From: Escherichia phage muut
Direction: 5' to 3' (one strand)
Length of the DNA stretch: 64,000 bases
Sequence record: NC_052657.1
Under the pieces are notes generated by a model. The model worked only from the letters and a program-made list of their open reading frames with translations. It was not told the DNA's origin and did not search any database. The position numbers were made by a program, and so were the translations under genes. This document shows positions 1-25,875 of this stretch, one piece after another (positions within the stretch are counted from its first letter, which is position 1; each line of letters starts with the position of its first letter).

Positions 1-1109
1 AACATTTTTACTCTCTTGCATGATAATCTCCTCTCATCGTTAGTCATCTTTCATGGCAATCATCAATCACCAACATCATACGATCAATCTTAGGGAATTA
101 CAATCGAATTATCATAGGGGATTCCTATCAATTATTCTATATATACCTATTATTTTTAACACACCCCTTTGTACATAATATAGACAAATAAATATCTATG
201 CCACAAAAATTTTCTGGTATACCCGATTTATTTCGACACACCCCCTTTTCATAAGCGTAAAGTCAATAATATCAATAACTTGCCGCAAAATACTGCTCGC
301 TTGCGAGAGGTGCTTAACGCGATTTTCAGCGCCCCGCGATTTTTCCCGACCGTCCCCCTCAAATATCAATGAGAATAATTATCATTTGCATTATCATTCA
401 ATGACTTATAAGACTTTTGATTATTTTCTGAGCAAGAAAGGTACTACTCACAACAAAACAGATAAATTCTAAGTAAATCAATGGCTTGGCAAGTCTAAAC
501 ATCTATATACACCTTGCCAAATGAAATGATCTGGCGTGAAATAGTGCTACCCGTGGAAGATAGCTGATAATGATTATCATTTGCATATTTTCTATACTAT
601 AAAACGCACTAAAAATCAAGATAATTCTGATTTATTGCGCTTTTAAGAAAGTAGGCTCAACAAATAGGCTATAACTATGCTCAACAAATAACAATAATAG
701 TATGAAAAATCATTTATTCAGATATAAATAATTTTGCGCAATAGTAGTAATATTTTTCTTGACAAGAAAGATTTCTTTGTGTTCACATAGCGCCCCCTGG
801 AAGGTGGCGCATTATGATCATCAATGTCATTATTCACCATGTTTATTATTGCATAGCTTATTATTTAGCTTATATTATAGCCAATGTTCTAAACACTAGC
901 TAATAATAACGCACCGCAACAATGTAAGGGATACAATATACCATGTATATTGTTGCGCTTGCAATTGTTGCAAGCTACATAAGCACAAATAATAACTATC
1001 GGTGATGGTTATTATGTGGGGTGTGTAGTTGCGTTATTATTAGCCGCCTATGTGTCCGGCATAGGCTGCTAATGATACGCTTGCGAATTATATTTCTTGT
1101 TATAGTTAT

Positions 1110-1173
1110 TGTATGAAATGATTACCACATGAAATGGTTACTGTATGCAATGATTACTGTATGAAATGATTAG
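1110..1173. repeat. Four tandem ~16-bp direct repeats, (t)gtatgaaatgattac(t)
   Basis: Read directly: tgtatgaaatgattacc / catgaaatggttactg / tatgcaatgattactg / tatgaaatgattag in a non-coding AT-rich region. Confidence 0.6.
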
Positions 1174-1195
1174 TTAGGTAATAAATAGGAAGGTA

Positions 1196-1455
1196 AAGGT
1201 TAGATCATAAATAGATAGGATATGAATTATTTAGTAATGTTACTAACGATTTAATAGTTACTTTGTGCAATAATTCGATAGATTATAGTTATAGTTTTAA
1301 AGGTTAGATAGATTATATTTAGCTTAGTAATGATTTATATTAGTTATTGTTGTTTAATATAAGGTTATCAATGAGATAGTAACAGTAAGTTATAAATAAA
1401 GGTTAGATAATTAGTTTTAATTTAGTTAGATAACTTATTATTTTATAGGTTAGAT
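1196..1455. repeat. Iteron-like dispersed repeat AGGTTAGAT, 4 copies (about 1196, 1301, 1400, 1447)
   Basis: Read directly; spacing about 100, 100 and 47 bp in an AT-rich ORF-free region. Confidence 0.5.
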
Positions 1456-1744
1456 GGTCATAAGTTAAGAATGATTATCATTATTGCATTATGCAGCTTA
1501 TTGCATAAATAATCAGCTATAAATAAGAATGATTATCATTTAAGAGGAAAGACAAGAAAAAGGCTGTTTTTGCCAGATAGTTGCATGAAGAAATTAAAAA
1601 TAAGCGGTCTAAAACACGTTGTAAGCGCCTTATGATCTTCATGGTATGGTTGTTCATCTGCTCCTTGATTAGCTCGATACCGCGATCTATTCACTTTTTT
1701 CGGTGAACGTTTTTGATAGGTAAAAGCTATCATCTTTATTTAGG

Positions 1745-1772
1745 TAAAAAGAAAGGGCGCAATAAGCGCCCT
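1745..1772 (-). terminator. Rho-independent terminator, hairpin GGGCGC-aataa-GCGCCC
   Basis: Perfect 6-bp GC stem followed on the minus strand by TTTCTTTTT, just downstream of the stop of the minus-strand gene ending at 1788. Same stem recurs at 2908 and 7116. Confidence 0.6.
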
Positions 1773-1787
1773 TGTTTGAAATGTTAT

Positions 1788-2171
1788 TTACTGATAAGCA
1801 GGATCGTTTGTTATATCAATCCAATGAGCTAAATTAATTTTATTTTTTGCTTTCATTTTCTCGATCAAACGTTCGGCTAATGTCTCGGAACGAATATAAA
1901 CATAATCGCTAAAATCTTGCCCCGTTTCTTCGTCGATCATTTCCCTATATTCAACCTTGCCGATAAACGCATGATTCAGCGCATAAGTTTTACCCGTGTA
2001 CCAGTTGTGTAAATGAATCTCGCATTTATAATCGTCGCTATAACCTTCGGTTGTTCTAACTTCAACCAAGTCACCTTTAAACACTGATAAGCACCACATA
2101 GGATCATGATCTACAGCGCCGTTAAAATCTTTACCGTTTACAGTCGCTGCCAGGTTGATGATATTGCTCAT
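1788..2171 (-). CDS. Hypothetical early protein (127 aa)
   Basis: ORF with GAGGAA ribosome-binding site upstream of the ATG; terminator immediately downstream. Confidence 0.55.
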   Translation of the reverse strand: MSNIINLAATVNGKDFNGAVDHDPMWCLSVFKGDLVEVRTTEGYSDDYKCEIHLHNWYTGKTYALNHAFIGKVEYREMIDEETGQDFSDYVYIRSETLAERLIEKMKAKNKINLAHWIDITNDPAYQ

Positions 2172-2555: not shown

Positions 2556-2900
2556 TAGGTGAGATTGTAAAGATTTGATAGTTTATTTCTTTAATGTTTT
2601 GTTGTTTGATAGGTGGAAGCTATCAATATATAATAAGATCGTCCGGTGATTATCTTCCCCTGCTCCCAGGTGCCGCCCGTTCCATAATAATAATCAAAAG
2701 CAGGATAAAAGGCAAGATAAAAAGCAAATTATTTCCTATGTGCTTTAAACGCTCTAAATAGTTTTATAACAGCTTTTTCATCCTGGCAAGGTGATTAGTC
2801 ATTGTTACCTTGTTTAAGCGGTTATAATCGGTTTTAGGCTGTTTTACGCCACCTTTTACGTTTATTCTTTACGTGTTACTTCCATCGTGAAAAAAGAATA

Positions 2901-2934
2901 CAAAAAAGGGCGCTTAGTGCGCCCCTTTCTTTTA
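2901..2934 (-). terminator. Rho-independent terminator, hairpin GGGCGC-ttagt-GCGCCC
   Basis: GC stem flanked by an A-run and a T-run; downstream of the minus-strand gene ending at 2942. Confidence 0.6.
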
Positions 2935-2941
2935 CCGTGTA

Positions 2942-3331
2942 TTAATATTCGTTATAATACATTGCTAACTTTTCATCAAAAGCCGATTGACGATCTGCAT
3001 ACTCCCAAAACATTTCCTGATCCTGTTGTTCGTCATCGTCCATCATATTAAATTGCGCAACCTCCTGGTAAGTGATCGCCATATTATAACGATAGGTGAT
3101 CTCTTCTGCGATGTTTTCCGGTAAAGATGATTCTACACTGTCTAACAGCATATTTAACATCATTTCAGCCGCTTTTTCATCATTATCAAAGCAGTAAGCA
3201 GACCATGCCGCATGATGTTTATTTTTCATCTTTGCAATCAAGCCGTTGACTAAAAAAGGCGCTACGTTGTTAACGATACCCTGTAAAGATTGAAATTTTT
3301 CAACGTTAGAAACAGAAACCAGGTTGCGCAT
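2942..3331 (-). CDS. Hypothetical early protein (129 aa, start trimmed)
   Basis: The Met at 3331 follows the promoter/hairpin cassette with ribosome-binding site AAAAAGGTAAA; the track start at 3367 lies inside the hairpin. Confidence 0.5.
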   Translation of the reverse strand: MRNLVSVSNVEKFQSLQGIVNNVAPFLVNGLIAKMKNKHHAAWSAYCFDNDEKAAEMMLNMLLDSVESSLPENIAEEITYRYNMAITYQEVAQFNMMDDDEQQDQEMFWEYADRQSAFDEKLAMYYNEY

Positions 3332-3355
3332 AGTATTTACCTTTTTGATTACCTG

Positions 3356-3413
3356 GCGGGAAACCATTTCCCGCCTACGTGGTAAATAGTACCATATTGG
3401 GGATCGGTGTCAA
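3356..3413 (-). promoter_or_regulatory. Early promoter plus 5-prime stem-loop cassette (hairpin GGCGGGAAA-cca-TTTCCCGCC at 3356-3375; -35 TTGACA at 3408-3413)
   Basis: Perfect 9-bp inverted repeat; TTGACA about 17 nt upstream of a -10-like hexamer on the minus strand. Confidence 0.55.
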
Positions 3414-3419
3414 TACTTT

Positions 3420-3806
3420 TTATTCAATATAAATCAAATTATCTTCACCAATGTAAGCATGCACCGATGGCATTAATTTAGCTGCATTTGTTAGGCGGTT
3501 GGCGGTGTTAGTAGTGTATATTTCAGGGCGATCCCAAAAGCCTACGCCGTGACCGTTACGGGTGAAATGTAAGTCATTCCCGATCTGGTTTGCTGTTGCG
3601 CCGTCGCTCATTGCCTCAGAGATAGCAGCATCATTGGCATCACAATAAGCCGCTACGTCATGAATGATCCGCTGATGGGCTTGATCTGAAAAATCATAAT
3701 CGTCTAAGTTATCAATAAAATTACCTTCATGATCCCTAGCTGATTCAGCAAAAATAAAGGCTTCTTTATAACCGTTGATGATTTCAATAATGATTTCTGT
3801 TTTCAT
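3420..3806 (-). CDS. Hypothetical protein (128 aa)
   Basis: ORF; its start overlaps the stop of the upstream gene (ATGA overlap), suggesting translational coupling. Confidence 0.55.
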   Translation of the reverse strand: MKTEIIIEIINGYKEAFIFAESARDHEGNFIDNLDDYDFSDQAHQRIIHDVAAYCDANDAAISEAMSDGATANQIGNDLHFTRNGHGVGFWDRPEIYTTNTANRLTNAAKLMPSVHAYIGEDNLIYIE

Positions 3807-7738: not shown

Positions 7739-7909
7739 TTATTTATTTTTTAACGTTAATGTTCCCAGCTTATCAGCGTGACGCAGACCAGGAAAGATCC
7801 ATTTTCCTGATTCATCTTTCACCGGGGCTTTAAGCGTAGCGCCCAGGTTGGCGGCGTTAACTTTACGTGCAACGTTGCGAGCGGCTTCACGGGTGGCGAA
7901 AGTGATCAT
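7739..7909 (-). CDS. Possible small protein (56 aa)
   Basis: Hand-translated ORF with ribosome-binding site AGAGGAAAC, downstream of hairpin 7933-7954. Below the track cutoff. Confidence 0.3.
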   Translation of the reverse strand: MITFATREAARNVARKVNAANLGATLKAPVKDESGKWIFPGLRHADKLGTLTLKNK

Positions 7910-7932
7910 GATGTTTCCTCTTCTCTTTGTTA

Positions 7933-7993
7933 GGCGGTGGGCTATTCCACCGCCTTAATGAATATAGTTTACTGATTTTAGTTATCTTGTCAA
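7933..7993 (-). promoter_or_regulatory. Early promoter plus 5-prime stem-loop cassette
   Basis: Hairpin GGCGGTGG-aatagc-CCACCGCC; TTGACA at 7988-7993. Confidence 0.5.
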
Positions 7994-8984: not shown

Positions 8985-9106
8985 ACTATTTTATCAGGGG
9001 GAGTTTTTCGTGTGCCTTACTCCTGGGCTACTTAACGGGGTGTTACTTCGTTCCCCCGTCCTGATATGAAACATTTTACGCTTTTTATTCGTGCTGTCAA
9101 TGCTTT

Positions 9107-9472
9107 TTATAAATCTTTTTTACGTTTAACATCGCTTGCATGGCTGTATACAGCGATCCCATTGTCACGGCAAAAACGGGAAAGATACGCGCCGCGTGAA
9201 AACTCTTTACCTTCCAGGTTGATAACCTTGCTAAACTCTTCTAGGGCAACGGTATCAAAATGATCCCCGTATCCATATTGGAACGGCACGTTTACCACTT
9301 CGATCAGTTTACCGCCGATCTCAACGTCAACCATCAAAGAGAAATAAGTATTACCATAAGACTTTTGAAACCAGCGACGGGCGCTAATATGCACCGCTTC
9401 AATGCTGGATAGTTCAATTTTAGCCGTGTTAGCCAGGGTAGCATAAGCGGAAACATTAATATTTTTAGCCAT
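9107..9472 (-). CDS. Hypothetical protein (121 aa)
   Basis: ORF. Confidence 0.5.
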   Translation of the reverse strand: MAKNINVSAYATLANTAKIELSSIEAVHISARRWFQKSYGNTYFSLMVDVEIGGKLIEVVNVPFQYGYGDHFDTVALEEFSKVINLEGKEFSRGAYLSRFCRDNGIAVYSHASDVKRKKDL

Positions 9473-9618
9473 GATTTTATTCCTTAGTAACGCTTCAATT
9501 TATATAAGCATTATAGCTTACTGATTTCAGTTGTCAAGTGATTTTTTATTTCACCTTTGAGGGGGTTGCCCCGCTCTATGTGGTACATATTACGGGGCTT
9601 GTTTGCATATGTCAAGCC

Positions 9619-10173
9619 TTACACAATGCAATTTTCATAATTTTTTAAGGCTTGTATTTTTTCCTCTTCTGTCGGCCTATATGGCTGGATCTCTTCCTCT
9701 TCCAGGGTGGGCATGATTTCTTCCTCTTCCTCCTGGTCGTCCTGGTCTTCCTCTTGCGCTATGGTAACAAGTTTATTGATCTTCTCCTGGGCTTTAATCA
9801 ATTTTGCATCTAGCACCATTTTAGCGGTGTTGTATACAGTCCATGCCATGCGCTTTTCTTCGTATGCCTTATCTAGTGCGGCTAATTTAGCGGGATACTC
9901 TTCTAACACCTTAAAAGCCGGATCAATGCTATATAAGGGATTATTTTTAGCATCATCGCTTGGATCTGCGGCGCTTGCAATGTCAGCGTTACCATTTGCC
10001 AGCCAACCAGGGCGAACGGATCGCGCCTTTGTGTTGCCGTTGCTCTTTGCCGCTCGATTTCCTATCTGCTCCCCGCTATACCCTACCATGTGATCGATCA
10101 TTTCATCTGGTATTATGCGCGGATCATTAGCGTCATGCTTTACCCATGACTGGATCACATATTCACGCCCCAT
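9619..10173 (-). CDS. Hypothetical protein with acidic C-terminal tail (184 aa)
   Basis: ORF; C-terminus rich in Glu/Asp (EEDQDDQEEEEE). Confidence 0.55.
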   Translation of the reverse strand: MGREYVIQSWVKHDANDPRIIPDEMIDHMVGYSGEQIGNRAAKSNGNTKARSVRPGWLANGNADIASAADPSDDAKNNPLYSIDPAFKVLEEYPAKLAALDKAYEEKRMAWTVYNTAKMVLDAKLIKAQEKINKLVTIAQEEDQDDQEEEEEIMPTLEEEEIQPYRPTEEEKIQALKNYENCIV

Positions 10174-10435
10174 GTTCGTTCGCCTCTTCTGTTAGTAGTT
10201 TACATACCTTAAACATGCTTGCCGCATCTTTTGACGGTAGCCAGCCTATCCGATACACTCCAGGATCTGGATTAGTTATATCAGTTAGTTGCGCGTTGCG
10301 ATGATTAAAAATAGTGTAACCGCCGCCAGCACGGGGATAAACATTATCTTTAAACCTGATAGCGTATCTCGCCAGGTCGAACGTTGTAGCATGTTCAAAA
10401 GCGATCACATTATCAAAAACTTTTAGAAAAAACAA
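10163..10435 (-). CDS. Hypothetical protein (90 aa)
   Basis: ORF overlapping the start of 9619..10173 by 11 nt. Confidence 0.45.
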   Translation of the reverse strand: MFFLKVFDNVIAFEHATTFDLARYAIRFKDNVYPRAGGGYTIFNHRNAQLTDITNPDPGVYRIGWLPSKDAASMFKVCKLLTEEANEHGA

Positions 10436-10437
10436 GA

Positions 10438-10584
10438 TTATCCTCCCCAGCGTTTAAAGCCCGTTGCACGGTTGTTTTTTAGCTCTCGTTTTAGTCTCTT
10501 GCAACGGTTTACAAGTGCAAACCGTGCCGGAGTCGTAACAGTAGCGCCGTTTTTGGTGTGAATACTCATTACATATTGTTTCAT
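10438..10584 (-). CDS. Possible small basic protein (48 aa)
   Basis: Hand-translated ORF downstream of hairpin GCGGGAA-tag-TTCCCGC at 10604-10620. Below the track cutoff. Confidence 0.3.
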   Translation of the reverse strand: MKQYVMSIHTKNGATVTTPARFALVNRCKRLKRELKNNRATGFKRWGG

Positions 10585-10766
10585 AAAGTTTTATCCTATG
10601 TAAGCGGGAACTATTCCCGCTTTAAGATAGCTTATCAGGTTTTAGTGCAACGTCAACCGTTTTTTTAATCTTTTTTCATTTCTTTTTTGCTTGCTATCTA
10701 TAAAGGAAACGGCTATTATCTTTCTACCGCGCCAACCAGGGCGCACATCAAAGAAAGGGCGATACC

Positions 10767-11033
10767 ATGACAAATACCCCTTTACATCTCATGCACTCAT
10801 TGGGCTGGCAAGGCGGCACGGTGCACCAGGTAGCAAGCGCAACGGGCTTAAAGGTTGAAACCGTTCTCAACCTGGGCGATCATAAGGTGGAAGAAATAGA
10901 TCATTTTGATACGTTCGCAAATGGTTATCTATGGGCTTGCAGTGGCGGCGGGGAAAGCAAGATCCCGCCAGGGGCGCGGGGCGACATGTATTTTTGGTTA
11001 GGTGTCCTATCCTGGCAAGAAAACAAAAAATAA
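10767..11033 (+). CDS. Hypothetical protein (88 aa), the only plus-strand ORF in the early block
   Basis: ORF with ribosome-binding site AAAGAAAGGG. Confidence 0.35.
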   Translation: MTNTPLHLMHSLGWQGGTVHQVASATGLKVETVLNLGDHKVEEIDHFDTFANGYLWACSGGGESKIPPGARGDMYFWLGVLSWQENKK

Positions 11034-11035
11034 TC

Positions 11036-11064
11036 TTGACAAGCCCAGGGATCGGGCTTATACT
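11036..11064 (+). promoter_or_regulatory. Strong sigma70-type promoter (TTGACA-N17-TATACT) driving a non-coding region
   Basis: Read directly; the downstream ~100 nt carry GC-rich inverted repeats and no ORF. Confidence 0.45.
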
Positions 11065-11296
11065 GTTTTACATACAGAAGAGGAAGCGCCACCCCCACGG
11101 CGTAAAGGCGGGGCTAACATACCAGGGCACTACTGGTTGGAAGGTTGATCGCCGGTAGCTCGTCTAAAATAAATTTGTAAAGAAATGTAAAGATAAAAAT
11201 AATCGCTTGCTTTTGTTGTTGGTTATGCTATTCTTATTGTATGGCGAGGGGATACGGGAGCGCGAGACAAACACCACCCCTGCGCGTTATTCTCTA

Positions 11297-11408
11297 AATG
11301 AGAAAATTCTTATTTGGTAATGATTCTCATTCTCTTACTGAGAATGATTATCACTTACATAATTAAATGATAATGATTCTCATTTACAAATGAGAATGAT
11401 TATCATCC
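11297..11408. repeat. Cluster of five Fur-box-like palindromic motifs (AATGAT[TA]NTCAT)
   Basis: Read directly: taatgattctcattctc, gagaatgattatcacttac, gataatgattctcatttac, gagaatgattatcatccg and one degenerate copy. Confidence 0.5.
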
Positions 11409-11430
11409 GCACACCCATAAAAACACGAAA

Positions 11431-11628
11431 TTGAACTTTTCATTTTTGATTTTTCTACGGAAAAAGGCAAAAAAACTTTAAATAAACTGGGGAATTTTTA
11501 AAAAATTGAAGTTTTCATTTTCAAAATCTGGACAGAAATACATACAAAAACTTTAAATAATTTTGACCAAACTTGAACTTTTCATTTTCAAAATTTGTAG
11601 CCAAAAATCTGTAAAAACTTTAAATAAT
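11431..11628. repeat. Three direct repeats of about 56 bp (TTGAAsTTTTCATTTT...AAAAACTTTAAATAA)
   Basis: Units at about 11431-11486, 11506-11561 and 11573-11628, read directly; ORF-free and AT-rich. Confidence 0.55.
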
Positions 11629-11845
11629 TTTATCCTTTTTATAAAAATGATTTTACTGTTCTGTTATAAATAGTAGTTAAGAGATAATGTGTCTTTTAAA
11701 AGCCAGATAGCATAGTCCAACAAACAAATTAAATAATTTATTAACAGAGTACAGAATAATATTTACTCTGGATATATTATTCAGAGGGTGGATTTCCGTA
11801 CATGAAACCCACACCCCTTTTATAAAAATAAAAATTTTCAAAATA

Positions 11846-12397
11846 TCAGGAAATATCAGATTGTGTTTTTAGATAAACAGCAAGGTCTGTATGCCATTTT
11901 CCTAAAAGATTTTGTCCTTTCCAACAATCCTTGTTTTCAACATTACGATCCCACATCCCCATTTTGATACCATAAATAGAATCATAAGGGCTTGCCTCTA
12001 CGAACTCCTTATCTGCGTAAGCAATAAGTTTATTTTTGAGATCTTCATTTTGTGTGTATTTAAGATACAAACCACGTTCGACAATCTTCTCCCGTAAAGA
12101 AGTCCAGGTATCTTCATCATAATCCTTAACTAATCTACCTAGTCGCTTATAATATGCTTGTTCTTTTTCTCCTGTATATCTTAGATCTCCGGTTAAAATA
12201 GAAGATGCAATATTGTAATCATAAAACAAACATGCTTTTCTCCACATCATATATTGTTCCACACAAGTAAATTCAACATAACTTGTAATAGAATTATTAT
12301 ACTTGGGAGCTAAAGGTTCAATAAAAGATGATAGATACCAGTTGCTAAATTCATCTTTTGCCGAAAAGAAGAACACATACTTATCAGTAATCCGCAT
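11846..12397 (-). CDS. NADAR/YbiA-like (DUF1768) domain protein
   Basis: Motifs FFFSAKDEFSNWYLSSF, ASPYDSIYGIKMG and GQNLLGKWHTDL resemble the YbiA/NADAR family pattern (FF..SNF.., SP.D..WG.G, G.N.LG). Confidence 0.5.
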   Translation of the reverse strand: MRITDKYVFFFSAKDEFSNWYLSSFIEPLAPKYNNSITSYVEFTCVEQYMMWRKACLFYDYNIASSILTGDLRYTGEKEQAYYKRLGRLVKDYDEDTWTSLREKIVERGLYLKYTQNEDLKNKLIAYADKEFVEASPYDSIYGIKMGMWDRNVENKDCWKGQNLLGKWHTDLAVYLKTQSDIS

Positions 12398-13588
12398 TTA
12401 CACCTCCTTACTGTATACTAATTTGCCACCATATTGTGTAATAATTTTTTGAAGATTTTCCAAATCAGAAACACTTACTGTTTCTGTATAACCATCTTTC
12501 AACTCTCTTTTCGTTAAAATACCAGTTTTTAATTTTTTCTTTATAGCTCTTTCAGCAGCCTTACATTGTTTCACTGTGCTAAAATCATATAAACAAATAC
12601 GCTCCATAAAAAACAGATTACGGCTATTTTGAATGTTTAATCGCCTATCACTATCTTTAGCTATACCAAACTTAAGAGCAACTATAATATTATCATCCTT
12701 AACAATATTAATATATAACTGCTGCTGACTATGACCAGCACACATAGGACAACCTCGACAGCGGCTTAATAAATTATGAGCACTCCCTATCTGCTCACCA
12801 TGCACAAGACAAAGATATTTAAACTTACCTATAGAAGAGGGTTTGGTAATCCAATCTACCCAGACATACCCTTTCCCTTCTACTTCCTTTTTTACCCTAT
12901 AGGTGATCTGGTCTTCTGTATACTGATAGTTCCCACAACGACACGGAATGTACCCTCGTTTAAGGTTATTTCCTTCAGAGTAAAATTTACCATCACAAAC
13001 ACCTGCTTGAACATATTCATCATGAGAGCAAACAGGACATTCAACCATCCAGATACTATGCCTGCGTCCTTTACTCCGTGTTCCTGTGTTAGTGAAGATA
13101 GTGCCTTCCTTAAATTTCCCTGTAGAAAAGAAATCTGCAATATGTTGATCGTCGGGCATTGTTAGTGCCTTCCTTGTATTCTCCCCCCTACATTGTGGAC
13201 AACCTCGACCGCCTTTAAATTGATGAATTGCTGTACTTTGCCATCTATTCCCACAATGGCACAACAAATCAAGTTTTGTTTTATTCCCTTTCCATTCTCC
13301 AACGTACCCTAACACCTGATACCCCTTCTTCTGTGCTATCTCTTCCAAGATCGGCAATTCTGTTTCCCATGTTAACGGCTTCTTACCAGAACAGATAGGA
13401 CAACTGTTGCCGCGCTTGAAATTACTAATACTACAAGTCTTCCATTCATGTTCCTGCCTACAGCGTAGAATCATTTTCGTATCACAACCTATAAACGGTT
13501 CAACATATCCTAGGATCTCAATCCCTTTATTATTCGCAATAGGTTGACACTCTTCTTTATATTGTTCCCATGATTTTGGTGCTGCCAT
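12398..13588 (-). CDS. Zinc-ribbon repeat protein with C-terminal T5orf172 (GIY-YIG-like) domain
   Basis: Several CxxC...CxxC pairs (CPICSG, CPQCRG, CPVCSH, CRGCPMCAGH); C-terminal KFGIAKDSDRRLNIQ...DGYTETVSV matches the T5orf172 pattern (KIGxT..RR...). Confidence 0.6.
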   Translation of the reverse strand: MAAPKSWEQYKEECQPIANNKGIEILGYVEPFIGCDTKMILRCRQEHEWKTCSISNFKRGNSCPICSGKKPLTWETELPILEEIAQKKGYQVLGYVGEWKGNKTKLDLLCHCGNRWQSTAIHQFKGGRGCPQCRGENTRKALTMPDDQHIADFFSTGKFKEGTIFTNTGTRSKGRRHSIWMVECPVCSHDEYVQAGVCDGKFYSEGNNLKRGYIPCRCGNYQYTEDQITYRVKKEVEGKGYVWVDWITKPSSIGKFKYLCLVHGEQIGSAHNLLSRCRGCPMCAGHSQQQLYINIVKDDNIIVALKFGIAKDSDRRLNIQNSRNLFFMERICLYDFSTVKQCKAAERAIKKKLKTGILTKRELKDGYTETVSVSDLENLQKIITQYGGKLVYSKEV

Positions 13589-13662
13589 CTACTACTCCTC
13601 TTATTAAATCTGGCATTAATGCAAGAAAACCCGCCGAAGCGGGTTTTTATTTGCTGGCTTAC

Positions 13663-14790
13663 TTAAAACACACTTGCCAAAGTTGCACCATTGGTGATAG
13701 TTGGTTCCAGAACAATACGGAAAGAATCTTCTGGATCATCACTAAACACAACGATTTTACCGCCTGTAATAAGATCTGCTTTCATTTTTGTCGCATTCAA
13801 TGGAATTCGAGCATCGCCTTCATCATCAAAAACCACGTAAGAGCTATTAGCAAGGGCTTCTTTAGAATCTGCATCACTTGGAGATGACAAGTACACGTCC
13901 AGTGTGCACGAACCACCTAAAAAGATTGCAGGTGTGAAGTTATGCCAACTAGATACCCAGCTAACTTTCTGAAGTTTCCCATTAATAACAACACTGCTGA
14001 TATCCCATTTATTACCACCACCTAAAGAAACACCCATCATAGAGATGCATTCTTTAAAGGATAAATCAGGGTAGAAATTAAGTTCTTCTACTATACCTTG
14101 GATCACATCAAAGGACAACTCTAAACTTACATCCCAAAGTCTTTGGAAATTATCAAAGTGTGCTTTGTTATCCAGGTTTTTATCTAAATAGTCCATCATA
14201 GTTTCTAGTGAGATTTTATCATAATTAAAATTATAAAACACACGACTAGGACGATTTAAAAAGAATTCAGAGATAAAGCCACTGTTTTTAGTCAGAATAA
14301 ACAGTTTATTACCACTGCCAGTACCATCTAACAAAGTGAGAAGTGCTTCTTGATCTTGTTTCTTCTCATATACTTTATCAAATTCATCAAAAATAATCAC
14401 TGCTTTGTCTGTGATCTTGCTAATAAGTTCAATGAAATTAGCATCACTGTAGGCTTGAGTAACCATAATAGTTGGAATACCTTCTTCTACAAGGTCACGA
14501 CTAATGAGTTTGGCTAACATAGTTTTACCACTGCCCTTAGTGCCTGTCAGGAGCAAACCTGTATTTTTACCTTGTGCACTCCGGCGATGGAATGTACGAA
14601 TAACGTGATTTGCTCGTTTTTCTGTTTCACCATACAGAACATCCGGTACACCTGTTAGATTACCACGGCTTAAAAAGTAATTGCCAAGGGGATCACGACT
14701 AACAGTATAGAATCCAGGTGGAAGATAGTTAGATTCCACGCCCATATCTTTATTTACACTTACAATATCACCATAAATCGTGTATTTCAT
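13663..14790 (-). CDS. AAA+ ATPase, paralog A
   Basis: Walker A GTKGSGKT, Walker B IIFDEFDK, sensor LTKN, NRPSR; about 45% identical in the ATPase core to 30498..31658. Confidence 0.65.
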   Translation of the reverse strand: MKYTIYGDIVSVNKDMGVESNYLPPGFYTVSRDPLGNYFLSRGNLTGVPDVLYGETEKRANHVIRTFHRRSAQGKNTGLLLTGTKGSGKTMLAKLISRDLVEEGIPTIMVTQAYSDANFIELISKITDKAVIIFDEFDKVYEKKQDQEALLTLLDGTGSGNKLFILTKNSGFISEFFLNRPSRVFYNFNYDKISLETMMDYLDKNLDNKAHFDNFQRLWDVSLELSFDVIQGIVEELNFYPDLSFKECISMMGVSLGGGNKWDISSVVINGKLQKVSWVSSWHNFTPAIFLGGSCTLDVYLSSPSDADSKEALANSSYVVFDDEGDARIPLNATKMKADLITGGKIVVFSDDPEDSFRIVLEPTITNGATLASVF

Positions 14791-16369: not shown

Positions 16370-16660
16370 ATGAACATCACACTAGCAACTAAGAATATTA
16401 CAGAAACTTTTGATGGTTTTGGCATTATTATTGCTGTTCATGGGCATAACGAAAAATGGTTAGCCTCTTTTGAAGAGGACAAAGAACGCAATGTACGTTT
16501 GAATGCACCAATCAAAGTTTTACACCAGGTAGGTGAGAATAAGAAACAATGGAGATCATACAAAGAGTGGAACATTACGAACGAGTTAATACACAAACTT
16601 GACAAAGTGATAAACATGTTCGACAATGCACCAAGCAGTGCAAAACGTGTTTTACTATAA
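16370..16660 (+). CDS. Hypothetical protein (96 aa); first gene of the plus-strand block
   Basis: ORF with ribosome-binding site AAGAGG; divergent from the minus-strand cassette. Confidence 0.5.
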   Translation: MNITLATKNITETFDGFGIIIAVHGHNEKWLASFEEDKERNVRLNAPIKVLHQVGENKKQWRSYKEWNITNELIHKLDKVINMFDNAPSSAKRVLL

Positions 16661-23100: not shown

Positions 23101-25875
23101 ATGGCTAAGAAAGAGTTGAGCTTCACTCCAACAGAAGAGCAAACAGCTATTAAGGAGGCTTTTCCAGACCATCGCTTTTTAACTATCCAAGCTAAATCTG
23201 GATCAGGCAAAACGTCAACACTTTATTTGCTGGCTAACAGTACAGAAGATCGCATTCTTTACTTAGCTTTCAATAAAAGCATGGCAGAAGAAGCACGACG
23301 TAAGATGCCACCAAATGTAGAATGCCGTACATTGCATTCTATTTGCTATCAATTCCTGGATCATCGTTTACGTGCAAAACTGTCACGACCAGAAGGACAG
23401 TATGTTAACGTTGCAGGTACAGGTAGTGAGATAGCAAAGAAATTTAAGATTAATAATCTTATTGATAAACGAGGGAAAACACTTTTAACTCGTGCCATGA
23501 TTGGTTTAATGATCAAGCAAACAGTAGGTAAGTTTGAATTTTCGGATGATCCTTTTATCAGCCGTAAACATTTTCCTAGTGTACATCTTGCAGATATTAA
23601 AAGAAAAGGTATTAACGAACACAAACTAATTACAGAAGTAGTTAAGTATGCAAAACAATTGTGGCGAGAGCGCATTGATCCTAATACAGATACTTTGATG
23701 ACGCATGACACCTATGTAAAATTGTTTGAATTGTCTGGTGCTGATCTTGGTTATGATATTATTTTTGGTGATGAATTCCAGGATGTTAACCCTGCATTCT
23801 TGTCTATTTTGCGAAATGCTAAATCTGCAAAACAAATTGTGGTAGTTGGCGATGAATTCCAATGTGTGTCAGAAAACACGGTACTTAATACCGAGAATGG
23901 TCAGGTTACAATGAAAGACCTGCAAATCGGTGATAAGGTAGAGTCTTATTCTAATGGTAAAGTTACATTTAGAAAAGTAACAAATAAAACTTTATCTACA
24001 CGTACAAAAGGTAGGAATATTATTACTACTAAAGGTAAAACTTTAGATATGACACATAATCATCGTATTTGGGCTTCACCTTATGTTCTGAAAGATGATC
24101 AAATGGTGGTATATCTAATGTGGAGGAAAGATTTAGGTTTCCGAGTAGGAATTACTAACAAATTCGATGATAAAGAAGGTTTTTCTAAACTGGGGCAACG
24201 TACACGTTCTGAAAAAGCACAGAAATTATGGGTGTTGGATATTGTTGAAAATCGCGAAGCTGCTATGGAAAAAGAAATGGCATACAGTTTACAATATGGC
24301 ATTCCTACTTGTGTATTTGAAGCAAGTTCACGCGGCATTAATCAAGAAAGGATCAATAACATCTTTGAACAATTCGGACAAAATGGTTTTAAACTTTTAG
24401 AGGATAAAGATTATCATTTTGCTTATCCACACTGGCACAGCATCAATTGTGCAGTAGATGAAAGAAAAATGCTAACAGTGACTTTGCGAGCACAAGGTTG
24501 TAAAGGAACACAAGTTAGTTTTGAGTGGACAGAAAGTGAAATGCCGATCTATTCTTCACTGATTAAAGCAGGTGTAAGCGTAAGTGCTGCTAAATTGGAA
24601 GGTCGTTACCGTGTACGTAAATATTTCAATTCTTATCGTGAAGCATTGAGTTTTGCACAAAAGATCCTTGAAATAGTTCCGTTTGCATCTTTAAAAGAAT
24701 GCATGTCCTCTGTGAACAGTGCCAAATATAACTTAATTCCGGCAGCGGGTTTGTTTAAAGGCATGTCTGTGTTGGTAAAAGATGGTGATACTGTAACGGC
24801 AGAAGAGATTGTGGACATTGTAGATAGTGAGGGTATCTATTATGATATTGAAGTAGAGGATACTGCTAACTTCTTTGGCAATGAAATTCTTAGCCACAAC
24901 TGCATTTATCAATTTAGAGGTAGCTCTAATATGATGATTGAAACAGCTAAGTATGGGGCAGAACTTCCATTAACTGCTTGCTTCCGTTTTGGCCCCAAAG
25001 TGGCAAACATTGCCAATATGATTTTAAGCGATAAAGAACCTTTGCGTCATCCTTTGGTTGGTAAAGGCTTTGATACTGTAGTAGGTAGCTACAAATCAGA
25101 TGTTGTAGACTATACAAAACCTTACACTATCATCTTTCGCAAGAATTTAACCTTGCTTATGGAGGCAATGGATCGTATTGCAGATGGGGAAGAAATTATT
25201 ATTAACGTAGATACCAGGGATTTTATCTCTATGGTAGATAGTGTTAATGCTCTTCGGAGAGGAGATATTGAGAAAGTAAAACATGAAACTGTATTACCTT
25301 ACGCAGACTGGGATGAATTTGTTGAGTGTGCAGAGGCTGATCCAGATGCTAAACGCTTGTTAAACATCGTAGTTTCTGGTAAGGCGAACACTATAGCACA
25401 TACACTTAGAACGCATAGAAATTCTCCTACAGCAAAAGTCACACTTACTACAGCACACAAGTCTAAAGGTTTGGAGTGGGATCAGGTTATTGTTGCTAAT
25501 GATTTTCCTTCCAACTATGATAAAAAGACTGGTGAATGGGTAGGACTGGAAGAGGCAGAGCGAAACCTACTGTATGTAGCGCATACCCGTTGTGTTAAAT
25601 GCTTACAATGGAACACAACCGTACAGGAGATTATAGATATCAATCGTGTTGCAACAGAGAAAGTACCAACAAGCACCACTTTACCGATCAATGGTATTAA
25701 ACTTGGTGTATTTGGCGCTGGCACATCTCGAAAAACTGTAGAAAAATTTGTTGCAGATTCTTTTGATGGTAACTATAATCATGCACAAGCATATGAGAGT
25801 TGGCTAGAGGAAGGTGAAGGTGATTTCTTAGGTGAAATAAATCTTTTACCAGACATAAATAAACTGGTAAACTAA
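23101..25875 (+). CDS. UvrD/PcrA-like SF1 DNA helicase precursor interrupted by an intein
   Basis: Walker A AKSGSGKT, motif II FGDEFQDVN, motif III split as GDEFQ | intein | CIYQFRG, C-terminal TLTTAHKSKGLEWDQVIV. Start trimmed to MAKKEL (ribosome-binding site AAGAGAGG). Confidence 0.75.
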   Translation: MAKKELSFTPTEEQTAIKEAFPDHRFLTIQAKSGSGKTSTLYLLANSTEDRILYLAFNKSMAEEARRKMPPNVECRTLHSICYQFLDHRLRAKLSRPEGQYVNVAGTGSEIAKKFKINNLIDKRGKTLLTRAMIGLMIKQTVGKFEFSDDPFISRKHFPSVHLADIKRKGINEHKLITEVVKYAKQLWRERIDPNTDTLMTHDTYVKLFELSGADLGYDIIFGDEFQDVNPAFLSILRNAKSAKQIVVVGDEFQCVSENTVLNTENGQVTMKDLQIGDKVESYSNGKVTFRKVTNKTLSTRTKGRNIITTKGKTLDMTHNHRIWASPYVLKDDQMVVYLMWRKDLGFRVGITNKFDDKEGFSKLGQRTRSEKAQKLWVLDIVENREAAMEKEMAYSLQYGIPTCVFEASSRGINQERINNIFEQFGQNGFKLLEDKDYHFAYPHWHSINCAVDERKMLTVTLRAQGCKGTQVSFEWTESEMPIYSSLIKAGVSVSAAKLEGRYRVRKYFNSYREALSFAQKILEIVPFASLKECMSSVNSAKYNLIPAAGLFKGMSVLVKDGDTVTAEEIVDIVDSEGIYYDIEVEDTANFFGNEILSHNCIYQFRGSSNMMIETAKYGAELPLTACFRFGPKVANIANMILSDKEPLRHPLVGKGFDTVVGSYKSDVVDYTKPYTIIFRKNLTLLMEAMDRIADGEEIIINVDTRDFISMVDSVNALRRGDIEKVKHETVLPYADWDEFVECAEADPDAKRLLNIVVSGKANTIAHTLRTHRNSPTAKVTLTTAHKSKGLEWDQVIVANDFPSNYDKKTGEWVGLEEAERNLLYVAHTRCVKCLQWNTTVQEIIDINRVATEKVPTSTTLPINGIKLGVFGAGTSRKTVEKFVADSFDGNYNHAQAYESWLEEGEGDFLGEINLLPDINKLVN
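23863..24900 (+). mobile_element. Intein (about 346 aa) inserted in helicase motif III
   Basis: Begins with Cys (CVSENTVLNT), has a block-B-like T-x-x-H (MTHNH), ends in SHN followed by extein Cys+1; excision restores GDEFQ-CIYQFRG. No LAGLIDADG recognised by eye. Confidence 0.6.

What the first reader, a model, noticed from the sequence alone, without database searches (positions are those of the whole stretch)
11036..11160. Strong promoter driving an ORF-free structured region: candidate small RNA
A near-consensus TTGACA-N17-TATACT promoter at 11036-11064 is followed by about 100 nt with GC-rich inverted repeats and no ORF or ribosome-binding site. I could not fold it into a tRNA cloverleaf.
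Basis: seen in the sequence. Interest (0 to 1): 0.35.

Follow-up and report, generated by a model that had tools for sequence, protein, structure and literature searches.

The report
Conserved pseudoknotted phage small RNA gene
A strong bacterial-type promoter in this E. coli phage drives an unannotated, non-coding RNA of about 100 nt whose pseudoknotted fold is conserved across two subfamilies of large lytic phages, matches no described RNA family, and still has no known function.

Summary
The promoter TTGACA-N17-TATACT is at 11036-11064 as reported. The window is a phi92/Justusliebigvirus-like coliphage.

The ~100 nt after the promoter (11065-11165) are the best-conserved part of an 0.8-kb ORF-free gap. 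They are still recognisable in distant Vequintavirinae where the flanks no longer align. Across 47 distinct copies:
- The promoter is kept at a fixed distance in 44 of 45 upstream contexts.
- Hairpin P3 has compensatory changes at 7 of 9 pairs.
- A hairpin loop pairs with a downstream G-run as an H-type pseudoknot whose third pair switches C-G to A-U.
- A 22-nt block (11141-11162) is nearly invariant.
- No reading frame is conserved.

The element is not a tRNA and matches no Rfam family. It has no relative in 5,426 E. coli genomes or in plasmids. In two relatives, homing-endonuclease genes have split this RNA gene or the one after it, and each time an intact copy with its own promoter follows.

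So the "candidate small RNA" reading is supported by comparison, but no expression data exist. Function is unknown. My best guess is an autonomous early RNA bound by a conserved partner. The main rival is the structured head of transcripts that activate a replication origin in the adjacent repeat array. Fur-type boxes downstream are a notable side finding.

The parts
11016..11035 (+). A/T-rich stretch upstream of the -35 hexamer (gaaaacaaaaaataatc). It may be an UP element.
   Evidence: Read from the sequence. Comparable A/T-rich stretches precede the -35 in relatives. Inferred, not tested.
11036..11064 (+). Promoter P1: TTGACA, 17-nt spacer, TATACT. The predicted start is near 11070-11072.
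   Evidence: 11/12 consensus matches. Kept in 44 of 45 distinct upstream contexts, at a fixed distance from the first stem. The start site is inferred from spacing only.
11041..11059 (+). Hairpin inside the P1 spacer (AAGCCC-AGGGATC-GGGCTT) followed by a T-rich tail. It looks like a terminator for the upstream + strand ORF 10767-11033.
   Evidence: Flagged as terminator-like. In many relatives the stem sequence differs but still pairs, with fold energies down to -16 kcal/mol and several GNRA loops. In some clades the spacer hairpin is weak or absent.
11072..11086 (+). 5' leader with the conserved purine tract ACAGRAGAGGA. It is Shine-Dalgarno-like, but no start codon follows.
   Evidence: Alignments A1 and A2. 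Its complement is over-represented in the window (24 against 6.3 expected), but those hits are ribosome-binding sites and Glu-rich coding stretches, not specific targets.
11087..11102 (+). Stem P1 (CGCC 11087-11090 with GGCG 11099-11102) closing the loop ACCCCCAC (11091-11098).
   Evidence: Three pairs are invariant in all 47 copies. The closing pair is lost (AGCC) in 3 copies. Because it never varies in an informative way, it is consistent with pairing but not proven by covariation.
11092..11113 (+). H-type pseudoknot: loop C-run (11092-11096) pairs with GGGG (11110-11113) across the A-rich linker UAAA (11103-11106).
   Evidence: In the core, columns 30-32 pair with 47-49. Two pairs are essentially invariant C-G. 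The third is C-G in 37 copies, A-U in 7 and unpaired in 3. Observed states are CCCC/GGGG, CCAA/UUGG and CCAG/CUGG, with imperfect intermediates in L044/L301, L286/L313 and L302.
11107..11153 (+). Helix P2 (GGC 11107-11109 with GCC 11151-11153), which encloses P3. It is present only in 'type A' copies such as this one.
   Evidence: Invariant within type A. Copies with the YUAAAC linker lack the 5' strand, so P2 is not a universal feature of the RNA.
11118..11139 (+). Hairpin P3 (CAUACCAG, loop GGCACUA, CUGGUUG, with one bulged U).
   Evidence: 7 of 9 pairs show compensatory changes; one pair is A-U in 27 copies and G-C in 18. 0 of 500 shuffles reach the observed covariation for the whole structure. 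Stem length and sequence vary, yet almost every variant folds as a hairpin. Two are capped by UUCG or GAAA.
11141..11162 (+). Nearly invariant block AAGGU-N-R-AUCGCCGG-N-AG-Y-UCG (here AAGGUUGAUCGCCGGUAGCUCG). It is largely single-stranded and is the candidate recognition surface.
   Evidence: Nearly invariant in the 47 copies. The Ro1 homing endonuclease gene is inserted within it. It has no complementary site in the window and none beyond chance in E. coli rRNAs.
11176..11194 (+). Direct repeat TGTAAAGA-N3-TGTAAAGA, just upstream of the second promoter.
   Evidence: Read from the sequence. The first copy is conserved in most relatives that have unit 2. Its role (UP element, protein site, or RNA1 tail) was not tested.
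11207..11234 (+). Promoter P2: TTGCTT, 16-nt spacer, TG-n-TATTCT. It is weak here (7/12 plus an extended -10) and scores 9/12 in Vequintavirinae.
   Evidence: Hexamers read from the sequence. CR9 has TTGCAA-17-TATATT and the Erwinia phage has TTGACC-17-GATACT. In L085 a new TTGACA-N17-GATAAT promoter precedes the replacement copy of unit 2.
11237..11305 (+). Unit 2: a second conserved non-coding block containing the invariant GAGACAAACACC (11264-11275).
   Evidence: 36 distinct copies found. RNAalifold finds no consensus fold. The one helix I tested pairs 79% of cells, but its covariation is not above shuffles (126/500). Its structure is therefore not established.
11315..11405 (.). Four palindromes of the form TGAKAAT-N-ATTMTCA, which resemble Fur boxes. 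A promoter-like site (11377-11406) overlaps the last two.
   Evidence: Each has 1-2 mismatches to the 7-1-7 consensus. The window holds 9 matches against 0.91 expected. The consensus was recalled from memory, and binding was not tested.
11427..11631 (+). Three direct repeats of about 63 nt, spaced 67-75 nt apart, in DNA of 20-27% G+C. This is an iteron-like array.
   Evidence: Repeat family D1 and composition profile. Relatives have different repeat units at the same position.

Best explanation
Window 11036-11165 is a gene for a non-coding RNA, which I call RNA1.

What the evidence shows:
- A conserved sigma-70-type promoter sits at a fixed distance upstream.
- The downstream sequence keeps a hairpin (P3) through many compensatory changes, and keeps a loop-to-downstream pairing that makes an H-type pseudoknot.
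- It contains a nearly invariant 22-nt block.
- It has no conserved reading frame.

What I infer:
- Host RNA polymerase starts near 11071 immediately after infection and makes an abundant RNA whose first ~95 nt fold into a compact pseudoknot-plus-hairpin scaffold.
- The scaffold presents the invariant block AAGGUNRAUCGCCGGNAGYUCG.
- The RNA acts as an RNA in its own right. It is recognised through that block by a partner that is conserved across Enterobacterales hosts or across these phages, most likely a protein of the transcription, translation or replication machinery. It would serve as a decoy, a scaffold or a recruitment handle.
- Its 3' end is probably made by processing in the A/U-rich tract after 11165, or in some phages by a weak terminator inside the next promoter.

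RNA1 is the first of two or three tandem promoter units that all face the phage's non-coding repeat array, so its job is probably connected with that array.
For: - Conservation: the 281-nt query matches 233 phage records. In distant Vequintavirinae only window 11067-11193 still aligns, at 82-86% identity.
- A covariance model finds one strong copy in the window (103.9 bits, E = 2.4e-29) and 47 copies in the fetched loci.
- Structure: 89% of cells pair, against 17-42% when partners are slid. Nine pairs have changes on both sides, and 0 of 500 shuffles reach the observed covariation.
- The third pseudoknot pair is C-G in 37 copies and A-U in 7. L085 has CCAG with CUGG.
- Strand: promoter orientation; the closing pair at columns 53/104 is G-C in 7 copies and G-U in 8; two P3 variants carry UUCG or GAAA caps.
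- Non-coding: no frame is conserved.
- Autonomy: in Ro1 an HNH endonuclease gene (PHROG 953, E = 7.6e-79) follows a truncated copy and is itself followed by a new consensus promoter and an intact variant RNA1. L085 shows the same design for unit 2 but does not duplicate RNA1, which then lies about 0.6 kb further from the repeats.
- The next + strand ORF of 90 aa or more starts at 16370.
- No Rfam family matches, even at E <= 10, and there is no tRNA.
Against: - There are no expression data of any kind, and nothing on this element in the literature searched.
- No intrinsic terminator follows RNA1 in the window, so a discrete small RNA is not demonstrated. The transcript may simply run on.
- No partner or target was identified. 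There is no complementary site in the window, none beyond chance in E. coli rRNAs, and no host homologue to mimic.
- Stem P1 and the two inner pseudoknot pairs never vary, so they are not proven by covariation.
- Five copies, in three sequence variants, have imperfect outer pseudoknot pairs.
- The copies are phylogenetically related, which inflates the shuffle statistics.
- Single-sequence folding energy is ordinary (z = -0.35).
- The constant orientation toward the repeat array fits a cis role equally well.
Confidence: 0.42

Rival explanations
1. RNA1 is the structured 5' head of untranslated transcripts that run from P1 (and from P2 and a third promoter) into the AT-rich repeat array. That array would be the phage replication origin. 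Transcription would open the array or leave an R-loop primer, as at the phage T7 primary origin or with ColE1 RNA II. The pseudoknot domain would stabilise the 5' end or recruit replication proteins.
For: - Two or three + strand promoters in tandem all point into the array.
- No terminator follows RNA1 in the window.
- The array has three ~63-nt direct repeats in DNA of 20-27% G+C.
- The order 'RNA1, then repeat array' is kept in every clade examined. That includes clades that lack unit 2 and the palindromes (L263/L286/L301/L302, L121).
- The rV5 paper reports a primase/helicase related to those of podoviruses and found no origin by skew analysis (PMC3606486).
- An AAA ATPase with weak DnaC-like hits lies two genes away.
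Against: - There are no DnaA boxes in the region and no origin mapping exists.
- Known promoter-type phage origins, as I recall them, do not need a conserved RNA fold or an invariant single-stranded block.
- In L085 an endonuclease gene separates RNA1 from the array by about 0.6 kb, and only unit 2 is re-supplied next to the array.
- The ~275-aa neighbour gene of Vequintavirinae, a candidate initiator by position, has no homologue in the window.
- The repeats could instead be a packaging site or a promoter array.
Confidence: 0.3
2. RNA1 is a promoter-proximal, cis-acting RNA that binds the RNA polymerase that has just made it. It would render the polymerase resistant to termination, in the manner of the put RNAs of phage HK022.
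For: - It lies immediately downstream of a strong early promoter at a fixed distance.
- It is a conserved fold with invariant unpaired nucleotides.
- The phage relies on host polymerase, judging by its consensus sigma-70 promoters (PMC3606486).
- In Ro1 the truncated copy, which keeps the pseudoknot and P3, now heads the endonuclease mRNA.
Against: - There is nothing obvious to read through to. The downstream DNA is non-coding and then antisense to - strand genes for about 5 kb.
- As I recall, put RNAs are two stem-loops and not a pseudoknot.
- No sequence similarity could be tested, because put is not in the libraries available here.
Confidence: 0.08
3. RNA1 is an orphan riboswitch-like aptamer. 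A compact H-type pseudoknot with an A-rich linker would bind a small molecule and set how far transcription proceeds toward unit 2 and the array.
For: - The architecture (hairpin, A-rich linker, loop-to-3' pairing, conserved junction nucleotides) is that of compact pseudoknot aptamers such as preQ1-I or SAM-II, as I recall them.
- It sits at the 5' end of a transcript.
Against: - No riboswitch family scores, even at E <= 10 on a 251-nt search.
- There is no regulated ORF and no recognisable expression platform or terminator.
- The longest invariant stretch lies outside the pseudoknot.
Confidence: 0.07
4. The conservation is at the DNA level. The region would be a promoter-terminator junction plus protein-binding or endonuclease-recognition sites, and the transcript would have no function of its own.
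For: - The invariant block never varies, so RNA and DNA constraints cannot be told apart there.
- An endonuclease gene is inserted within it.
- Protein-binding palindromes and repeats fill the rest of the gap.
- My G-U versus A-C strand test on the modelled helices was uninformative.
Against: - P3 keeps pairing while its sequence and length change (7 of 9 pairs compensatory). That pattern marks a folded single strand, not a duplex binding site.
- G-U at the closing pair in 8 copies would be C-A on the other strand.
- UUCG and GAAA caps occur on the + strand.
- The promoter is conserved at a fixed distance.
Confidence: 0.08
5. The region encodes a short peptide, such as the 75-aa or 48-aa mechanical ORF ending at 11158 or 11148.
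For: ORFs 10931-11158 and 11002-11148 exist on the + strand. A purine-rich Shine-Dalgarno-like tract lies at 11076-11085.
Against: - No frame is open in more than 25 of 47 copies.
- The distance from stem P1 to the invariant block is not preserved modulo 3 (31, 12 and 4 copies in the three classes).
- These ORFs start inside the upstream gene, upstream of the promoter.
- No start codon follows the purine tract.
Confidence: 0.02

Closest known systems
Phage T7 primary origin (tandem promoters followed by an AT-rich region) and the ColE1 RNA II primer
   Same: Tandem promoters face an AT-rich, repeat-containing, ORF-free stretch. The transcript is untranslated. As with RNA II, the transcript has a defined fold. 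What I know of these systems is from memory.
   Different: This element uses host sigma-70 promoters rather than phage-polymerase promoters. It has a conserved pseudoknot and an invariant single-stranded block, which T7 origin transcripts are not known to have. No antisense regulator like RNA I is apparent. Origin function is untested here.
put RNAs of phage HK022 (RNA-mediated antitermination)
   Same: A structured RNA of about 70-100 nt is encoded directly downstream of a strong early promoter in a phage that uses host polymerase.
   Different: As I recall, put is two stem-loops and not a pseudoknot, and it precedes long coding operons. Here nothing coding lies downstream on the same strand for about 5 kb.
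Compact H-type pseudoknot aptamers (preQ1-I, SAM-II) and the pseudoknot of the phage T4 gene 32 translational operator
   Same: A short GC stem whose loop pairs with sequence downstream of an A-rich linker. As in the gene 32 leader (from memory), an A/U-rich unstructured tract follows the pseudoknot.
   Different: No Rfam model scores. There is no downstream ORF to regulate. An additional hairpin and a 22-nt invariant block are present.
Small stable RNAs of T-even phages (T4 species C and D) and other phage-encoded small RNAs
   Same: These are phage-encoded, non-coding, structured and abundant RNAs. For the T4 species, as I recall, the function is also still unknown.
   Different: The T4 species lie in the tRNA cluster and are processed with tRNAs. 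This RNA has its own consensus promoter, lies beside a repeat array, and shares no detectable sequence or model similarity with any Rfam family.
pseudo-ToxI RNA of Pectobacterium phage phiTE
   Same: phiTE carries a homologue of RNA1 (locus L006). It is also the phage in which a non-coding anti-defence RNA was described (PMC3475682).
   Different: It is a different locus and a different sequence. [quoted passage not shown] RNA1 lies near 39.7 kb between phiTE_078 and phiTE_079. No ToxI repeat occurs in L006.

Membership tests
tRNA / tmRNA | Cloverleaf or tmRNA fold recognised by ARAGORN | tested here: not met
   No genes in the window and none in L003. The 'tRNA-Ile/Met' annotation over unit 2 in K45PH128C2 is not reproduced and looks like a coordinate offset.
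tRNA-like mimic (initiator tRNA D-arm) | Conserved identity to a host tRNA segment across the copies | tested here: not met
   Window 11154-11164 is identical to tRNA-fMet positions 19-29, and only 5 of 2000 shuffles share an 11-mer with that tRNA. However, only 6 of 47 copies keep the word; the conserved core is just GGUAG-Y-UCG. The comparison was also made after the fact.
Any Rfam 15 family (riboswitches, ribozymes, known small RNAs, group I introns, C4/CI-type phage RNAs) | Covariance-model score at or near the family's gathering threshold | tested here: not met
   No hits at gathering thresholds in the 64 kb. Nothing within 11065-11300 at E <= 10. On 251 nt the only hit is ohsC at 16.3 bits against a threshold of 50 (E = 4.6). 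A type B copy gives none. Loci with the endonuclease inserts give none.
Classical trans-acting enterobacterial small RNA (Hfq-dependent type) | Own promoter | tested here: met
   Promoter P1 is conserved in 44 of 45 contexts.
Classical trans-acting enterobacterial small RNA (Hfq-dependent type) | Rho-independent terminator with a U tail that defines the 3' end | tested here: not met
   No + strand terminator-like site follows RNA1 or unit 2 in the window. CR9 has only a weak 5-bp hairpin in the P2 spacer.
Classical trans-acting enterobacterial small RNA (Hfq-dependent type) | Conserved single-stranded seed with complementary targets | tested here: inconclusive
   An invariant block exists. No complementary site was found in the 64-kb window or, beyond chance, in rRNAs. 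The rest of the phage genome and the host transcriptome were not searched.
Riboswitch | Conserved aptamer-like fold at the 5' end of a transcript | tested here: met
   Pseudoknot plus hairpin with conserved junction nucleotides.
Riboswitch | Expression platform that controls a downstream gene | tested here: not met
   The next + strand ORF of 90 aa or more starts at 16370. There is no terminator or sequestered start site.
Riboswitch | Ligand binding | not testable with these tools
   Needs in-line probing or calorimetry.
Promoter-type phage or plasmid replication origin | Promoter(s) that direct transcription into an AT-rich region with repeats | tested here: met
   P1, P2 and a third promoter-like site; 20-27% G+C; three direct repeats.
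Promoter-type phage or plasmid replication origin | Host initiator sites (DnaA boxes) or an adjacent initiator gene | tested here: inconclusive
   No DnaA boxes in the region. An AAA ATPase with weak DnaC-like hits lies two genes away. The neighbour gene of Vequintavirinae is not conserved in the window.
Promoter-type phage or plasmid replication origin | Replication demonstrably starts here | not testable with these tools
   Needs marker-frequency analysis or 2D gels.
Fur-regulated operator (for the palindromes at 11315-11405) | Match to the 7-1-7 / 19-bp Fur consensus, more often than chance | tested here: met
   Four sites have 1-2 mismatches to TGATAATNATTATCA. The window holds 9 matches against 0.91 expected, and 0 of 100 shuffles reach 9. 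The same sites score 15-16 of 19 on the 19-bp form. The consensus was recalled from memory.
Fur-regulated operator (for the palindromes at 11315-11405) | Binding by Fur and iron-dependent regulation | not testable with these tools
   A BLAST search against E. coli genomes was uninformative. Needs EMSA, ChIP, or infection of a fur mutant.
Homing-endonuclease target gene | An endonuclease ORF interrupts the gene in some genomes, with a variant intact allele alongside | tested here: met
   Ro1: a 197-aa ORF (PHROG 953 HNH endonuclease, E = 7.6e-79) sits between a truncated type A copy and an intact type B copy. L085: a 154-aa ORF with weaker HNH hits (2e-6) lies inside unit 2 and is followed by a promoter and an intact unit 2. 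Cleavage specificity was not tested.

The most novel reading that the evidence does not exclude
RNA1 founds a new class of phage RNA. A pseudoknot scaffold would present an invariant 22-nt sequence that captures or reprograms a conserved host machine (RNA polymerase, the ribosome or a replication factor), or that senses a metabolite. It would thereby gate firing of the adjacent origin-like array. The neighbouring Fur-type boxes would tie that decision to the host's iron status. On this reading, a strictly lytic phage would use an RNA device together with a host iron sensor to time its own replication.
Probability: 0.15. Interest if true: 0.8.

Novelty: new variant of a known kind. Interest (0 to 1): 0.55.

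Why it matters
Vequintavirinae and Stephanstirmvirinae (the rV5, phi92, phAPEC8 and PVP-SE1 groups) include many phages isolated for therapy and biocontrol. In every record I inspected, the RNA genes in this 0.8-kb gap are unannotated.

The RNA fold has been kept across hosts from Escherichia to Erwinia and Pectobacterium. It is driven by a near-consensus early promoter and is re-supplied whenever a homing endonuclease disrupts it. That combination suggests it is important for infection.

Defining it would do three things:
- add a new RNA family;
- give a handle on the unknown replication or packaging control region of these phages;
- mark a site that should not be disturbed when engineering them.

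The Fur-type boxes, if real, would be an unusual link between a lytic phage and host iron sensing.

Tried and rejected
- tRNA: rejected.
- Known RNA family: rejected.
- Thermodynamic stability as evidence: a single-sequence fold is no better than shuffles, so this was dropped in favour of covariation.
- pseudo-ToxI of phiTE: a different locus.
- Host or plasmid origin of the RNA: no E. coli homologue. The plasmid hits are 26-nt AT-rich chance matches inside a Bacillus gene.
- Base-pairing targets: none for the invariant block or the unit 2 loop in the window. The excess of matches to the purine tract reflects ribosome-binding sites and Glu codons. Nothing beyond chance in rRNAs.
- Initiator-tRNA mimicry: the 11-mer identity is real but not conserved.
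- Coding: rejected.
- Group I intron around the endonuclease inserts: none detected.
- Unit 2 fold: RNAalifold gives nothing. My first column assignment was off by one. The corrected helix is not supported above shuffles.
- G-U versus A-C strand test on the modelled helices: uninformative, because the A-C cells are alignment artefacts inside a loop. It was replaced by the 53/104 closing pair and the tetraloop evidence.
- A mistake of mine: the pattern ATCGCCGGN{10,30}TGTAAAGA was too loose and returned mostly chance hits.
- Literature: eight searches found nothing on this element.
- BLAST of the palindromes against E. coli genomes: uninformative at that database size.
Full report
**What is at the coordinates.** The window reads TTGACA (11036-11041), a 17-nt spacer, and TATACT (11059-11064), exactly as reported. 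It is the best + strand sigma-70-type match in 9000-14000, at 11 of 12. That scan found 18 promoter-like sites against 14.4 expected by chance, so one site proves little on its own.

The window comes from a phi92/Justusliebigvirus-like coliphage of about 147 kb. The 11020-11300 stretch is 99.6% identical to phi92.

The finding lies at the left edge of an ORF-free gap (11034-11845). The gap separates a small + strand ORF (10767-11033, PHROG 19316, function unknown) from the 3' end of a - strand NADAR-domain gene (11846-12397). The next + strand ORF of 90 aa or more starts at 16370. The phi92 record annotates nothing in this gap.

**Known families.** ARAGORN finds no tRNA or tmRNA in the window. 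Rfam gives nothing at gathering thresholds in the 64 kb. It gives nothing inside 11065-11300 at E <= 10. With the most permissive filters on 251 nt, the only hit is a 16-bit chance match to ohsC, whose threshold is 50 bits. A divergent copy gives nothing either.

The minimum free energy of 11071-11170 is ordinary (-28.4 kcal/mol, z = -0.35). Structure cannot be argued from this one sequence.

**Conservation.** A sensitive search with 11020-11300 finds 233 phage records: Escherichia 119, Klebsiella 40, Salmonella 15, Cronobacter 15, Pectobacterium 9, and others. In the distant Vequintavirinae only window 11067-11193 still aligns, at 82-86% identity, while the flanks do not.

Reading the homologous regions in BIS47, K45PH128C2, CR9, phiTE, ChuuTotoro, SPLA5a, GAP31, KP12 and an Erwinia phage shows one architecture:
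- promoter P1;
- a conserved block of about 100 nt (RNA1);
- a second promoter, P2;
- a second conserved block with the invariant GAGACAAACACC (unit 2);
- palindromes of the GAGAATGATTCTC type;
- an array of direct repeats in AT-rich DNA.

Pattern scans of viral and metagenome collections, sifted with a covariance model built from 24 copies, brought the total to 47 distinct copies. The model finds a single strong copy in the window, at 11065-11165 (103.9 bits, E = 2.4e-29). One weak hit (15 bits, E = 0.027) is probably chance.

**Promoter.** In 44 of 45 distinct upstream contexts there is a site of at least 9/12 with a 17-18 nt spacer whose -10 hexamer ends 15-23 nt before the first stem.

In many of these contexts the spacer contains a hairpin whose stem sequence differs between phages but still pairs: AAGCCC/GGGCUU here, GCCCGGC/GCUGGGC, GCCCC/GGGGC and GCCAGGC/GCCUGGU elsewhere, several with GNRA loops. 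In some clades it is weak or absent. In the window this hairpin (11041-11059) with its T-rich tail scores as terminator-like. I read it as the terminator of the upstream ORF built into the next promoter. CR9 has the same design in the spacer of P2.

**Structure of RNA1.** On the 47-copy alignment, 89% of cells in my proposed structure form standard pairs, against 17-42% when the 3' partners are slid by 1-3 columns. Nine pairs show changes on both sides, and 0 of 500 column shuffles reach the observed covariation.

- *P3.* Most of the signal is in hairpin P3 (window 11118-11139). Seven of its nine pairs show compensatory changes; one pair, for example, is A-U in 27 copies and G-C in 18. Stem length and loop vary, yet almost every variant folds as a hairpin.
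- *P1.* Stem P1 (CGCC 11087-11090 with GGCG 11099-11102) is invariant, apart from loss of its closing pair in three copies. It is compatible with pairing but not proven by covariation.
- *Pseudoknot.* The loop of P1 pairs with the G-run 11110-11113 across an A-rich linker, making an H-type pseudoknot. Two core pairs are essentially invariant C-G. The third is C-G in 37 copies, A-U in 7 and unpaired in 3. The sequence states are CCCC/GGGG, CCAA/UUGG and CCAG/CUGG. Imperfect intermediates occur in L044/L301 (A-C), L286/L313 (A-G) and L302 (two A-G). I regard the pseudoknot as likely, and less secure than P3.
- *P2.* A closing helix (GGC 11107-11109 with GCC 11151-11153) exists only in 'type A' copies like the window's. 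Copies with the YUAAAC linker lack its 5' strand.
- *Invariant block.* The block AAGGU-N-R-AUCGCCGG-N-AG-Y-UCG (11141-11162) is nevertheless nearly invariant everywhere. Pairing does not explain that.

The shuffle control ignores phylogeny, so these statistics overstate independence.

**Strand and coding.**
- My first strand test, G-U against A-C in the modelled helices, was uninformative. The A-C cells come from a forced apical pair inside a loop.
- Better evidence comes from an extra closing pair at alignment columns 53/104. It is G-C in 7 copies and G-U in 8, and the latter would be C-A on the other strand.
- Two P3 variants carry UUCG or GAAA caps on the + strand.
- The promoter orientation points the same way.
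- No reading frame is open in more than 25 of 47 copies, element lengths run from 89 to 104 nt, and the distance from P1 to the invariant block is not kept modulo 3. The mechanical ORFs of 75 and 48 aa are therefore not genes.

**Homing endonucleases.**
- *Ro1.* In Raoultella phage Ro1 a type A copy is cut short inside the invariant block. A 197-aa ORF follows (PHROG 953 HNH endonuclease, E = 7.6e-79). Then come a new consensus promoter with its own spacer hairpin and a complete type B RNA1.
- *L085.* In L085 a 154-aa ORF with weaker HNH hits interrupts unit 2. It is followed by TTGACA-N17-GATAAT and a complete variant unit 2.
- No group I intron is detected in either case.

Each time, an intact promoter-plus-RNA unit is retained. 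This argues that both units are independently transcribed genes under selection. In L085, RNA1 itself is not duplicated although it now lies about 0.6 kb further from the repeats. That weakly favours action in trans for RNA1.

**Unit 2.** Thirty-six distinct copies exist. RNAalifold finds no consensus fold. The helix I proposed pairs 79% of cells but does not exceed shuffles (126/500, after correcting a column error). I claim only a conserved promoter-plus-sequence block. Unit 2 is absent from a more distant clade (L263, L286, L301, L302) that still has RNA1 followed by A/T-tract repeats.

**Surroundings.**
- Four palindromes at 11315-11405 have 1-2 mismatches to the Fur 7-1-7 consensus, which I recalled from memory. 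The window holds 9 such matches against 0.91 expected, with 0 of 100 shuffles reaching 9. Eight of them lie in ORF-poor DNA.
- A promoter-like site at 11377-11406 overlaps the last two boxes. In CR9 and the Erwinia phage a third + strand promoter follows the boxes.
- Next come three ~63-nt direct repeats (11427-11631) in DNA of 20-27% G+C.
- There are no DnaA boxes in the region.
- Neighbouring genes are not conserved between the subfamilies.

**What it is not.**
- There is no relative in 5,426 complete E. coli genomes.
- The only plasmid hits are 26-nt AT-rich chance matches.
- The pseudo-ToxI RNA of phiTE is at a different locus.
- The invariant segments have no complementary site in the window and none beyond chance in E. 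coli 16S, 23S or 5S rRNA.
- The window's GGTAGCTCGTC is identical to initiator tRNA positions 19-29, but only 6 of 47 copies keep it.
- Eight literature searches, including literal sequence strings, found no description of this element. The rV5 genome paper only marks a 'non-coding' box on its map and reports that skew analysis did not locate an origin.

**Interpretation.** I am fairly confident (about 0.85) that 11036-11165 is a genuine gene for a structured non-coding RNA on the + strand. How it works is inferred.

My preferred reading (0.42, including the mechanism) is an autonomous, abundant early RNA. Its scaffold would display the invariant block to a conserved partner. This is supported by the gene-like behaviour around the endonuclease inserts and by invariance that pairing does not explain.

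The main rival (0.30) is that RNA1 is the structured head of transcripts that enter and activate an origin in the repeat array. This is supported by the tandem promoters, the missing terminator, and the constant 'RNA1, then repeats' order in all clades.

A put-like antiterminator, an orphan riboswitch, a purely DNA-level element and a peptide are less likely. What remains missing is any transcript evidence.

Noticed in passing
window 11315-11405; also 370-384, 565-579, 1466-1480, 1524-1538, 24402-24416: Fur-type 7-1-7 palindromes (TGATAAT-N-ATTATCA with up to 2 mismatches) occur 9 times against 0.91 expected. They cluster in two ORF-poor regions of a strictly lytic phage. In most relatives that have unit 2, the first box directly follows it. 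The consensus was recalled from memory, and binding is untested.
   Followed up: partly
window 11041-11059 (and L005 2636-2650): A terminator-like hairpin is built into the spacer of promoter P1. Its stem covaries in many relatives, often with GNRA loops, though it is weak or absent in some clades. CR9 has the same arrangement in the spacer of P2. This looks like a compact terminator-inside-promoter design.
   Followed up: partly
window 11207-11305: A second promoter (P2) precedes a conserved non-coding block, unit 2, with the invariant GAGACAAACACC. It has 36 distinct copies, but its fold could not be established.
   Followed up: yes
window 11427-11631: Three direct repeats of about 63 nt lie in DNA of 20-27% G+C. 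Relatives carry different repeat units at the same position, several with A5-6T5-6 tracts and GATC-containing motifs. They could be origin iterons, a packaging site or a promoter array.
   Followed up: partly
L020 (Raoultella phage Ro1), reverse strand about 2700-3600; L085 4790-5520: HNH homing-endonuclease ORFs are inserted into RNA1 (Ro1) and into unit 2 (L085). Each is followed by a new promoter and an intact variant copy of the interrupted RNA gene.
   Followed up: yes
window about 10585-10640: The window lacks about 0.8-1.07 kb that relatives such as alia and BME3 carry here. The missing stretch includes a membrane-protein gene and a hypothetical gene. BLAST therefore matches relatives in two pieces.
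   Followed up: partly
window 11846-12397 (-), 12398-13588 (-), 13663-14790 (-): The genes to the right of the gap are a NADAR-domain protein (PF08719, 5e-36), a CapR-domain endonuclease (PHROG 681), and an AAA ATPase with weak DnaC-like and clamp-loader similarity.
   Followed up: partly
window 11154-11164: GGTAGCTCGTC is identical to positions 19-29 of E. coli initiator tRNA, and only 5 of 2000 shuffles share an 11-mer with that tRNA. Only 6 of 47 copies keep the word, so it is probably coincidence.
   Followed up: yes
window 10729-10744: The hairpin GCGCC-AACCAG-GGCGC in the 5' untranslated region of the upstream ORF resembles stem P1 with a type B-like loop.
   Followed up: no
window 1-1790: A second ORF-poor stretch, with no ORF longer than 65 aa, holds four of the Fur-type boxes. 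It was not searched for further conserved RNAs beyond Rfam and the RNA1 model.
   Followed up: no
phage records listed; L003 (OY978796.1): Records labelled Campylobacter or Serratia phage are about 97% identical to this coliphage, so their host labels look doubtful. The tRNA-Ile/Met/Lys coordinates in K45PH128C2 are not reproduced by ARAGORN and look offset.
   Followed up: partly
window 7796-7935 (-): A weak hit of the RNA1 covariance model (15.1 bits, E = 0.027). It is probably chance.
   Followed up: no
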